DNA from: Escherichia coli
GTDB taxonomy: Bacteria; Pseudomonadota; Gammaproteobacteria; Enterobacterales; Enterobacteriaceae
DNA length: 64,000 nt
Assembly (NCBI RefSeq): GCF_016026235.1
Contig: NZ_CP065613.1
Strand: one strand, 5' to 3'
Position numbers and translations under genes: made by a program. The notes under the pieces are model-generated. The model had not been told where the DNA came from. It was given only the letters and a program-made list of their open reading frames with translations, and did no database searches. This document shows, in pieces, positions 43,073-43,364 of the stretch; positions within the stretch are counted from its first letter, which is position 1, and each line of letters opens with the position of its first letter.

Positions 43073-43364
43073 AGCCTCACCTCCGCAAATAACGGATGGC
43101 GTAGTTTTACACTGAGAAATGAAAGGGATTTGAAAAGAAAAAACCGCAAAAGCGGGCGAAACGATATATACAGTAAGGAAAGCACTCTATCCAACAAACC
43201 ACTCACAGTTAATCGGAATAAAAGCAGAGTGCTTATGAATGATCGCCTGCCCGAAGGTTAGTATTTCTGCACAGCAATTTTGCAAAAAAAAGCGATCATT
43301 CATAACTTAAACGTCTTTCAGTCACTCCGGGATTTCCCATCATCGCAGACTGAAAGACTCTAAC

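What the first reader, a model, noticed from the sequence alone, without database searches (positions are those of the whole stretch)
43236..43300. Perfect 12-bp inverted repeat between holin and tRNA array
ATGAATGATCGC and GCGATCATTCAT flank about 40 bp of non-coding sequence where Stx phages carry cargo. It could be a hairpin regulatory element or a recombination scar.
Basis: seen in the sequence. Interest (0 to 1): 0.3.

Follow-up and report, generated by a model that had tools for sequence, protein, structure and literature searches.

The report
Conserved RNA hairpin trailing phage tRNAs
The inverted repeat is real and is the stem of a conserved RNA hairpin. It belongs to an unnamed, structured trailer RNA that follows the tRNA gene array of many lambdoid prophages of E. 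coli and its relatives; what the trailer does is not known.

Summary
The repeat is real and longer than reported. It has perfect 14-nt arms (43233-43246 and 43292-43305) with 45 nt between them. It is the only such repeat in the window, and shuffled sequence gives 0.07 on average.

It is neither a scar nor a cargo site. It is the basal stem of a 73-nt hairpin (HP2) on the minus strand, which is the sense strand of the tRNAs and the late genes. HP2 sits between two other conserved hairpins, HP1 and HP3. All three lie between the last tRNA (Gly-TCC) of a four-tRNA array and a weak intrinsic terminator, about 160 nt upstream of the S21-type holin.

About 10% of complete E. coli genomes carry this stretch, as do phages HK639, phi467 (Stx2f) and Fels-1, and prophages of Citrobacter, Yokenella, Phytobacter and Pseudocitrobacter. 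Base pairing is kept through compensatory changes. Across the whole element, G-U pairs favour the minus strand.

The element nearly always abuts the last tRNA of a promoter-driven array whose tRNA content varies, and a terminator usually follows it. It matches no Rfam family and is not a Pas sRNA.

My best reading is a structured 3' trailer RNA of the phage tRNA operon. It probably serves as an endonuclease processing and stability signal, as the RNase III hairpin after E. coli metY does. It might instead act as a stable RNA in its own right, like T4 rnaC/rnaD. The function is inferred, not shown.

The parts
43684..43712 (-). Sigma-70-type promoter of the tRNA array (TTGCAA-17-TATTAT), ending about 9 nt before the first tRNA and followed by a G+C-rich stretch
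   Evidence: Promoter scan. The same TTGCA-N17-TAT(T/C)AT arrangement, at a fixed distance from the first tRNA, recurs in loci whose upstream flanks are otherwise unrelated. Its activity was not tested.
43365..43674 (-). Array of four tRNA genes: CAT (Met by anticodon, annotated tRNA-Ile in RefSeq) 43599-43674, Lys-TTT 43521-43597, Thr-TGT 43443-43518, Gly-TCC 43365-43439. Starts are 78 nt apart.
   Evidence: ARAGORN; Rfam tRNA model, 44-72 bits; 78-nt spacing; RefSeq annotation of an identical locus.
43307..43363 (-). HP1, the first trailer hairpin. Its core arms are 43313-43323 and 43348-43358. It starts 1-2 nt after the CCA end of tRNA-Gly.
   Evidence: Inverted repeat I7; minimum-energy fold. 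In 22 relatives it is 96.3% paired, 4 pairs change on both sides, and it is paired in 96.3% of cells on the sense strand against 83.2% on the antisense strand. It is absent from some relatives.
43233..43305 (-). HP2, the hairpin of the finding. Its outer stem is the 14-nt inverted repeat (43233-43246 and 43292-43305). It also has an inner 8-bp helix (43281-43288 with 43264-43271) and a small CC-UUCG-GG hairpin.
   Evidence: the 126-nt module folds at -45.6 kcal/mol, z = -5.6. Covariation. Covariance-model match of 122 bits, and a single copy in the window.
43180..43234 (-). HP3, the third trailer hairpin. Its outer arms are 43180-43188 and 43226-43234, and its 3' strand GUGGUUUGUUGGAU is G/U-rich and almost invariant. 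HP2 and HP3 together make a module of 126 nt.
   Evidence: Inverted repeat I14. Four pairs change on both sides. The module is exactly 126 nt in most relatives. GGTTTGTTGG is invariant in 20 of 20 sequences that were collected with a pattern outside HP3.
43133..43159 (-). Weak terminator-like site, CGCCCGC-UUUU-GCGG-UUUUUUCUUUUC. Its stem is one G shorter than in most relatives.
   Evidence: Read from the sequence. A strict terminator follows HP3 in 38 of 59 distinct relatives against 3 of 59 shuffled controls, and these terminators fall into several unrelated sequence types. The window copy fails the strict test.
42857..43072 (-). S21-type (class II) holin, the first gene downstream. It is context, not part of the element.
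   Evidence: ORF list; RefSeq annotation of an identical locus.

Best explanation
The inverted repeat is the basal stem of a 73-nt RNA hairpin (HP2). HP2 is the central module of a conserved, structured 3' trailer RNA made of HP1, HP2, HP3 and a terminator. This trailer ends a phage tRNA operon. The operon has its own promoter, so in a lysogen it would produce the four tRNAs plus the trailer and stop at the terminator. During lytic growth, Q-modified polymerase coming from pR' would read through the terminator into the lysis genes. Because a hairpin starts 1-3 nt after the CCA end of the last tRNA, the trailer most likely acts at the RNA level as a processing and stability signal. An endonuclease would cut it: RNase III within the roughly 23-bp helix, and/or RNase E at the AG|UU junction at its foot. 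The cut would free the 3' end of the last tRNA, detach the tRNAs from the downstream late mRNA, and leave hairpin-capped products. Shown here: the repeat, its conservation, the covariation, the strand, the position next to the tRNA, the terminator and the promoter motif. Inferred: transcription, cleavage, and which enzyme does the cutting.
For: (1) The repeat is real and not due to chance.
(2) The minus-strand RNA folds far better than shuffled sequence: -92.5 kcal/mol and z = -4.8 for the 292-nt spacer, against z = -2.9 for the plus strand.
(3) Covariation supports the structure. For HP2+HP3 in 20 sequences, 97.9% of cells are paired, 8 pairs change on both sides, 0 of 500 shuffles reach the observed score, and slid controls pair in only 32-51% of cells. 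The HP2 outer stem in 40 sequences is 94.3% paired with 6 pairs changed on both sides. HP1 is 96.3% paired.
(4) The strand is the minus strand: 800 of 817 cells pair there, with 77 G-U pairs, against 728 of 817 on the plus strand. HP1 gives 96.3% against 83.2%.
(5) In about 80 loci the element follows the last tRNA of an array. It starts 1-8 nt after that tRNA when HP1 is absent and 57-61 nt after it when HP1 is present. This holds whichever tRNA comes last (Gly, Glu, Met or Lys).
(6) A terminator follows HP3 in 38 of 59 distinct relatives against 3 of 59 shuffled controls, and the terminators are of unrelated sequence types.
(7) A conserved promoter motif lies before the first tRNA.
(8) When the top of HP2 is replaced by other sequence (L245, L173, L201), the basal stem and the overall length are kept. 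L245 forms an almost continuous 26-bp duplex. This suggests that the helix itself is what selection preserves.
(9) There is a host precedent. E. coli metY is followed by a roughly 20-bp hairpin, then terminators, then mRNA. That hairpin is a known RNase III site which releases the tRNA (PMC5371410 and its reference 46).
Against: No expression or cleavage data were available, so the enzyme and even transcription in lysogens are inferred. A simple processing hairpin would not need three modules, a fixed 126-nt length, or the near-invariant G/U-rich strand of HP3 and the largely conserved HP2 loop. Those features point to a specific partner. The HP2 outer stem taken alone pairs almost as well on the antisense strand (94.3% against 92.3%), so the strand call rests on the inner helix, HP1 and HP3. 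The sequences are closely related, which means the double changes represent few independent events. In Fels-1, HP2 stands alone after a protein-coding moron with no tRNA beside it, so a neighbouring tRNA is not obligatory. The terminator in this window is weak.
Confidence: 0.5

Rival explanations
1. The trailer, or its 126-nt HP2+HP3 core with the terminator, is a functional stable RNA in its own right. It would be cut out of the tRNA precursor and act in trans as a sponge or base-pairing RNA, or as a decoy for a protein. Precedents are 3'ETS-leuZ in E. coli and the small stable RNAs rnaC and rnaD that follow the T4 tRNA cluster. On this reading the inverted repeat gives the RNA its scaffold.
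For: The length is fixed at 126 nt. The G/U-rich HP3 strand is near-invariant, and the HP2 loop stayed largely conserved even in sequences collected with a pattern outside it. The element has its own promoter and terminator. An A/U-rich linker precedes the terminator, as in Hfq-binding sRNAs. T4 has the same layout, with rnaD starting 1 nt after the last tRNA. The Q-to-S region of lambdoid prophages is a known home of sRNAs such as PasA/C/D, STnc100, AgvB and AsxR.
Against: The conserved stretches are mostly base-paired rather than exposed. No complementary site was found elsewhere in the window. The modules occur separately: HP2 alone in Fels-1, and HP1+HP2 without HP3 in L125. The top of HP2 is replaceable. 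No binding or expression data exist. There is no homology to T4 rnaC/rnaD or to the Pas sRNAs.
Confidence: 0.27
2. The element is a cis-acting leader of the lysis cassette. Once the tRNAs are cut out, the downstream late mRNA would begin with a hairpin at its 5' end. That hairpin would protect it from 5'-end-dependent RNase E decay, or the folded leader would tune holin expression and so the timing of lysis.
For: A hairpin starts 1-3 nt after the tRNA's 3' end, which fits the known requirement that a protective 5' stem-loop sit at the very end of the RNA. A holin gene usually follows within 100-500 nt.
Against: A terminator lies between the element and the holin. The downstream genes belong to at least three unrelated holin families, or are other ORFs. 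In HK639 about 500 nt, including an STnc100 copy, intervene. A protective hairpin would not need conserved sequence or three modules.
Confidence: 0.12
3. The feature works at the DNA level. It would be a recombination scar, the terminal inverted repeats of a miniature mobile element, a cruciform, or the binding site of a dimeric protein.
For: Homology between phages often breaks exactly at the foot of the stem, and a moron is inserted there in Fels-1. The HP2 outer stem alone is nearly as well paired on either strand.
Against: There is a single copy in the window and a median of one per genome, always in the same prophage position. No flanking direct repeats are present. The arms co-vary instead of keeping a fixed half-site. 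The inner helix, HP1 and HP3 rely on G-U pairs that exist only in the minus-strand RNA. The half-sites would be 45 bp apart.
Confidence: 0.04
4. It is a chance palindrome, or part of a small protein-coding gene: the 38-codon minus-strand ORF at 43187-43303, or the 43-codon plus-strand ORF annotated as a hypothetical protein in two phage records.
For: Both arms contain ATG AAT GAT CGC, and ORFs start there. ON470583 annotates the plus-strand ORF.
Against: Shuffles give 0.07 such repeats per window. Relatives differ by insertions and deletions that are not multiples of three, and the HK639-type copy stops after 10 codons. The pattern of change is paired covariation, not third-codon-position drift.
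Confidence: 0.02

Closest known systems
RNase III processing hairpin downstream of tRNA metY in the E. coli metY-rimP-nusA-infB operon (Regnier and Grunberg-Manago 1989, cited in PMC5371410)
   Same: The order is the same: tRNA, then a long hairpin of roughly two helical turns that begins right after the CCA end, then intrinsic terminator(s), then protein-coding genes on the same strand. There, cleavage in the hairpin releases the tRNA and sets the fate of the downstream mRNA.
   Different: No sequence similarity was seen or claimed. The phage trailer has up to three hairpins, a three-way junction in HP2 and strongly conserved sequence. RNase III cleavage was not tested here.
Phage T4 small stable RNAs rnaD (species 2, 119 nt) and rnaC (species 1, 139 nt)
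   Same: They are structured RNAs of similar size encoded directly after the last tRNA of a phage tRNA cluster, with a 1-nt gap and on the same strand. To my knowledge their function is still unknown.
   Different: The covariance model finds no homology. T4 rnaC has a tRNA-like T-arm sequence, which HP2 and HP3 lack. T4 is a lytic phage, and its cluster is not in a Q-dependent late operon.
3' external transcribed spacer RNA of the glyW-cysT-leuZ tRNA operon (3'ETS-leuZ), an sRNA sponge (from my own knowledge; the name appears among the sRNAs listed in PMC8550237 Table S2)
   Same: It lies between the last tRNA of an operon and the operon's terminator, so it would be released as a by-product of tRNA processing.
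   Different: 3'ETS-leuZ is short and little structured, and it acts through an exposed pairing region. This trailer is about 230 nt and almost fully folded, and no target or Hfq binding is known for it.
sRNAs of the Q-to-S region of prophages: PasA, PasC, PasD/STnc100 (RF02076), AgvB, AsxR, and isrK/isrJ-type pR' leader RNAs
   Same: They occupy the same neighbourhood, between antiterminator Q and the holin. STnc100 copies lie right beside the element in HK639, L125, L055 and Fels-1.
   Different: This is a different RNA. Rfam finds nothing over 43130-43365 even at E = 10. The model finds nothing at the PasA, PasC and PasD loci of E2348/69. PasA and PasC are transcribed from the opposite strand to the lysis genes.

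Membership tests
Intrinsic (Rho-independent) terminator | Short G+C-rich stem, a loop of about 3-8 nt, and a U-tract immediately 3' of the stem | tested here: not met
   HP2 encloses 45 nt, its base is A/U-rich, and GCAC follows it rather than a U-tract. The terminator scan does not report it. A separate terminator-like site lies about 75 nt further downstream.
Any described RNA family (Rfam 15) | A match to a curated covariance model | tested here: not met
   No match overlaps 43130-43365 at E up to 10. No family covers the homologous stretch in 12 related loci or in Fels-1.
tRNA or tRNA-like gene | A cloverleaf detectable by ARAGORN or the Rfam tRNA model | tested here: not met
   ARAGORN and RF00005 find only the four upstream tRNAs. 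HP2 is of tRNA length (73-75 nt) but folds as a rod.
3' trailer (external transcribed spacer) of a tRNA operon | Lies between the last tRNA and the operon's terminator, on the same strand | tested here: met
   This holds in the window and in most of about 80 related loci.
3' trailer (external transcribed spacer) of a tRNA operon | Co-transcribed with the tRNAs and released by endonucleolytic processing | not testable with these tools
   Only a conserved promoter motif and terminators were seen. There are no RNA data.
RNase III substrate | A double-stranded helix of about two turns (about 20 bp or more, internal loops tolerated) | tested here: inconclusive
   In the window the outer stem has 15 bp and a possibly stacked inner helix adds 8 bp. 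L245 has 26 bp. Whether the helices stack and whether any antideterminant base pairs are present could not be judged.
RNase III substrate | Cleavage that depends on rnc | not testable with these tools
   This needs end mapping in wild-type and rnc mutant strains.
Miniature inverted-repeat transposable element or IS end | Multiple dispersed copies, terminal inverted repeats and target-site duplications | tested here: not met
   There is one copy in the window and a median of one place per genome, always in the same prophage context. No flanking direct repeat is present.
Pas sRNAs of EPEC (PasA, PasC, PasD) | Sequence or structure homology to the E2348/69 genes | tested here: not met
   With filters off, model R1 gives no match at the Pas loci. 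The best match anywhere in L249 or L250 scores 11.9 bits, E about 0.09. The published stretch of PasA sequence is unrelated, and PasA is on the opposite strand.
Holin dual-start control structure (lambda sdi type) | A stem-loop that overlaps the ribosome-binding site or start codons of S | tested here: not met
   HP2 lies 160 nt upstream of the S start at 43072. A different repeat (43022-43031 with 43078-43087) covers the start region.

The most novel reading that the evidence does not exclude
HP2+HP3 is a new, autonomous, stable non-coding RNA that temperate phages express constitutively in lysogens together with a variable tRNA array. It would have a partner of its own: a host RNA, a ribonuclease, or a tRNA-targeting defence nuclease that it sponges or decoys. 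That would make it a tractable lambdoid counterpart of the long-unexplained T4 rnaC and rnaD.
Probability: 0.2. Interest if true: 0.7.

Novelty: new member of a known kind. Interest (0 to 1): 0.4.

Why it matters
If the reading is right, roughly one complete E. coli genome in ten carries an unannotated, structured RNA that is co-expressed with prophage tRNAs. So do an Stx2f phage and prophages of several other Enterobacteriaceae. The finding would add a defined family to the set of RNAs encoded between Q and the lysis genes. It would also give a testable model for how the last tRNA of a phage array is released and how the late mRNA is detached from the tRNAs. Finally, it offers a genetically easy system, an inducible lambdoid prophage, for asking what structured RNAs at the end of phage tRNA clusters do. 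On the practical side, the covariance model could be used to annotate this family, and it shows that the ORFs annotated over this region in two phage records are probably spurious.

Tried and rejected
- Rfam, at a permissive threshold on the window and at the gathering threshold on 13 related loci, gave nothing over the element.
- ARAGORN and the tRNA model show it is not a tRNA.
- Eight literature searches found no name for it. Topics covered were prophage/tRNA-Gly/sRNA/holin, external transcribed spacer with prophage, small RNAs of the lambdoid late region, tRNA arrays, HK639, metY/RNase III, STnc100 and the Pas sRNAs.
- The Pas sRNA lead looked promising, because those sRNAs also sit directly next to the holin. 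It failed on strand, on sequence and on the covariance-model search.
- Homology to T4 rnaC/rnaD was rejected.
- Searching the window for sites complementary to the conserved HP2 loop and the HP3 strand returned only the element itself.
- The coding reading was rejected because the reading frame is not conserved.
- The mobile-element reading was rejected because there is a single copy and no target duplication.
- An alternative pairing between the 3' arm of HP2 and the 3' strand of HP3 is possible in the HK639-type copy. I checked this by eye only. It does not hold for the window-type copy, so I dropped it.
- Caveat on sampling: the first collection scan used a pattern inside the HP2 loop, which biases loop conservation. 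A second scan with an HP3 pattern was used to offset this.

Full report
**Observation.** The sequence reported is present, with slightly wrong coordinates. ATGAATGATCGC lies at 43235-43246 and its complement GCGATCATTCAT at 43292-43303. The perfect complementarity is 14 nt long: TTATGAATGATCGC at 43233-43246 and GCGATCATTCATAA at 43292-43305, with 45 nt between. Among perfect inverted repeats with a loop of at most 100 nt, it is the only one of at least 14 nt in the 64-kb window. One hundred dinucleotide-preserving shuffles gave a mean of 0.07.

**Surroundings.** Everything relevant is on the minus strand.
- Antiterminator Q lies at 43873-44562. A pR'-type promoter and a tR'-type terminator follow at about 43776-43884.
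- A second promoter-like site (TTGCAA-17-TATTAT) lies at 43684-43712.
- Four tRNA genes lie at 43365-43674: CAT, Lys-TTT, Thr-TGT and Gly-TCC, with starts 78 nt apart.
- About 290 nt without a credible gene come next.
- The S21-type holin lies at 42857-43072, followed by the endolysin and the spanin.

The repeat is the middle one of three consecutive long hairpins in this spacer: HP1 at 43307-43363, HP2 at 43233-43305 and HP3 at 43180-43234. A weak terminator-like site follows at 43133-43159. As RNA, the minus strand of the spacer folds at -92.5 kcal/mol (z = -4.8). The plus strand folds at -67.5 kcal/mol (z = -2.9).

**Conservation.** The spacer is present at 80% identity or more in 529 of 5426 complete E. 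coli genomes, always on the chromosome and never annotated. It is also in phages phi467, vB_EcoS-689R5, PhiR47_1 and vB_EcoM-606R7. A 76%-identical version is in HK639.

Two scans of viral contigs, one with a pattern in the HP2 loop and one with a pattern in HP3, gave about 95 homologous loci. A scan of one genome per species gave four more, from Citrobacter sedlakii, Yokenella regensburgei, Phytobacter ursingii and a Pseudocitrobacter genome. Salmonella phage Fels-1 carries HP2 alone. HP2 plus HP3 form a module of exactly 126 nt in most versions. The window holds a single copy (122 bits).

**Structure.** On 20 diverse HP2+HP3 sequences the consensus fold has 41 pairs, and 97.9% of cells are paired. 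Eight pairs change on both sides. None of 500 column shuffles reached the observed covariation score, and sliding the partners by 1-3 columns dropped pairing to 32-51%.

The outer stem of HP2, which is the repeat itself, was then examined in 40 distinct sequences. It is 16 bp long and 94.3% paired, with double changes at six pairs, for example U-A to A-U at pair 3 and G-C to U-A or A-U at pair 11. One position is an A-C mismatch in 25 sequences and A-U in 15. The window copy is one of the perfect ones. HP1 is 96.3% paired in 22 sequences, with four pairs changed on both sides. The sequences are closely related, so these counts reflect few independent events.

**Strand.** Over the whole module, 800 of 817 cells pair on the minus strand, 77 of them as G-U. 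Only 728 of 817 pair on the plus strand. HP1 gives 96.3% against 83.2%. The HP2 outer stem taken alone does not discriminate (94.3% against 92.3%). The structure is therefore that of the RNA made in the direction of the tRNAs and late genes.

This rules out a fixed protein half-site and argues against a DNA palindrome. The ORFs that start at the ATG in each arm are not conserved in frame.

**Context across loci.** The element follows the last tRNA of a phage tRNA array. It starts 1-8 nt after that tRNA when HP1 is absent and 57-61 nt after it when HP1 is present. The last tRNA is usually Gly-TCC, but it is Glu-TTC in Yokenella, and Met or Lys in others.

The arrays differ in content but keep three features. 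They keep the 78-nt period, a first tRNA with anticodon CAT, and a promoter motif TTGCA-N17-TAT(T/C)AT at a fixed distance before that tRNA, even where the flanks are unrelated.

A strict intrinsic terminator follows HP3 within about 10-40 nt in 38 of 59 distinct sequences, against 3 of 59 shuffled controls. These terminators belong to several unrelated sequence types. Downstream come holins of at least three families, or other ORFs.

The unit is therefore promoter, tRNAs, structured trailer and terminator, embedded in the late operon.

**Modularity.** The hairpins can occur apart.
- HP2 directly follows the tRNA in seven loci.
- HP1+HP2 occur without HP3 in L058, L061 and L125.
- HP2 stands alone in Fels-1.
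- HP1 stands alone elsewhere in the Yokenella locus.

Homology breaks exactly at the foot of the HP2 stem. In Fels-1 a moron ORF is inserted precisely between HP1 and HP2. Where the top of HP2 has been replaced (L245, L173, L201, L218), the basal stem and the length are kept. L245 forms an almost continuous 26-bp duplex. The basal helix is thus the most constant feature of HP2.

**Comparison with what is known.** Rfam has no family for the element, and eight literature searches found no name for it.

The Pas sRNAs of EPEC also lie next to the holin, but they are a different thing. PasA and PasC are on the opposite strand, the published PasA sequence is unrelated, and the covariance model finds nothing at the PasA, PasC and PasD loci of E2348/69.

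Two precedents share the architecture. In E. coli, tRNA metY is followed by a roughly 20-bp hairpin, then terminators, then rimP-nusA-infB. RNase III cuts that hairpin, which releases the tRNA and starts decay of the downstream mRNA (PMC5371410 and its reference 46). In T4, the small stable RNAs rnaD and rnaC start 1 nt after the last tRNA of the cluster. They are not homologous to this element.

**Cargo.** The Stx2f phage phi467 has the element intact, and its stxA and stxB genes lie upstream of the tRNAs. This spot is therefore not the stx insertion point in the one Stx phage that shares it. From established knowledge, not tested here, Stx1 and Stx2 phages such as 933W carry stx between a different tRNA set and S.

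**Mechanism.** I commit to an RNA-level role as the structured 3' trailer of the phage tRNA operon. The hairpin abutting the CCA end would mark the place where an endonuclease separates the last tRNA from what follows, whether that is RNase III in the helix, RNase E at the AG|UU foot, or both. The products would be capped by hairpins.

That the RNA is made, that it is cut, and which enzyme cuts it are all inferences. The fixed length and the conserved HP3 strand fit a simple processing signal poorly. They keep open the rival that the trailer is a stable RNA with a partner of its own.

**Verdict.** The element is an unannotated member of a known kind: a structured RNA at the end of a tRNA operon. 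Interest is moderate.

Noticed in passing
window 43365-43712 (minus), and loci L009, L048, L096, L098, L138 and others: The prophage tRNA array looks like a cassette system. It has a conserved promoter and a first tRNA with anticodon CAT, a strict 78-nt period, and middle tRNAs that differ between phages (Lys, Arg-TCT, Arg-CCG, Thr, Phe, Glu). ARAGORN calls some of them 'tRNA-Stop(tta)' (L096) or cannot assign an anticodon. This may bear on how phages escape tRNA-targeting host defences.
   Followed up: partly
window 43022-43031 with 43078-43087: A perfect 10-nt inverted repeat (TGCGGAGGTG / CACCTCCGCA) pairs the ribosome-binding region just upstream of the S21-type holin start with a stretch inside the gene. 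It may be a structure that controls the two start codons of the holin.
   Followed up: no
window 43776-43884 (minus): Downstream of Q there is a promoter-like site and a terminator hairpin with T-runs on both sides. The stretch gives weak, sub-threshold matches to isrK and isrJ (22-25 bits). It is presumably the short pR'-tR' leader RNA of the late operon.
   Followed up: no
window 43133-43159 (minus): The terminator after the trailer has lost one G compared with most relatives (GCGG instead of GCGGG or GCGGGC), which leaves a 4-bp stem. Read-through into the holin may be higher in this prophage.
   Followed up: partly
L001 (HK639) 1660-1720; L125 (NCTC 13148) 1640-2100; L246 (Fels-1) 1872-2575: HK639, NCTC 13148 and Fels-1 keep only the 3' end of tRNA-Gly in front of HP1. 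In NCTC 13148 an HNH endonuclease gene lies just upstream of that remnant. In Fels-1 a secreted-protein moron (STM0906.1n) is inserted exactly between HP1 and HP2.
   Followed up: partly
L246 (Fels-1) 1273-1486, 1687-1809 and 2810-3028; L001 1206-1411; L125 1225-1417; L055 6582-7118: Copies of the sRNA family STnc100 (RF02076) lie next to the trailer modules in several phages, three of them in the Q-to-S region of Fels-1. This region is a mosaic of reusable structured-RNA modules.
   Followed up: no
L126 (phi467) 4460-5695: In the Stx2f phage phi467 the toxin genes lie between Q and tRNA-Thr, upstream of the tRNAs. The CAT and Lys tRNAs seen in the window are absent there.
   Followed up: no
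window 6841-6872, 31500-31535, 37062-37097 and 59995-60107: Four other perfect inverted repeats of at least 12 nt with short loops (8, 12, 12 and 89 nt). Together with HP2 that makes five, against 0.32 expected by chance. They may be terminators or other hairpins.
   Followed up: no
L003 (FDAARGOS_943) 3296-3984, equivalent to window 43873-44562: RefSeq marks the Q gene of an identical prophage as a frameshifted pseudogene. In the window the ORF is open for 229 codons, the same length as the Q annotated in phage vB_EcoS-689R5.
   Followed up: no
window 43130-43261 (plus): Two phage records (ON470583, ON470580) annotate a 'hypothetical protein' across HP2 and HP3 on the opposite strand. Given the RNA covariation and the lack of frame conservation, this is probably a false gene call.
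   Followed up: partly
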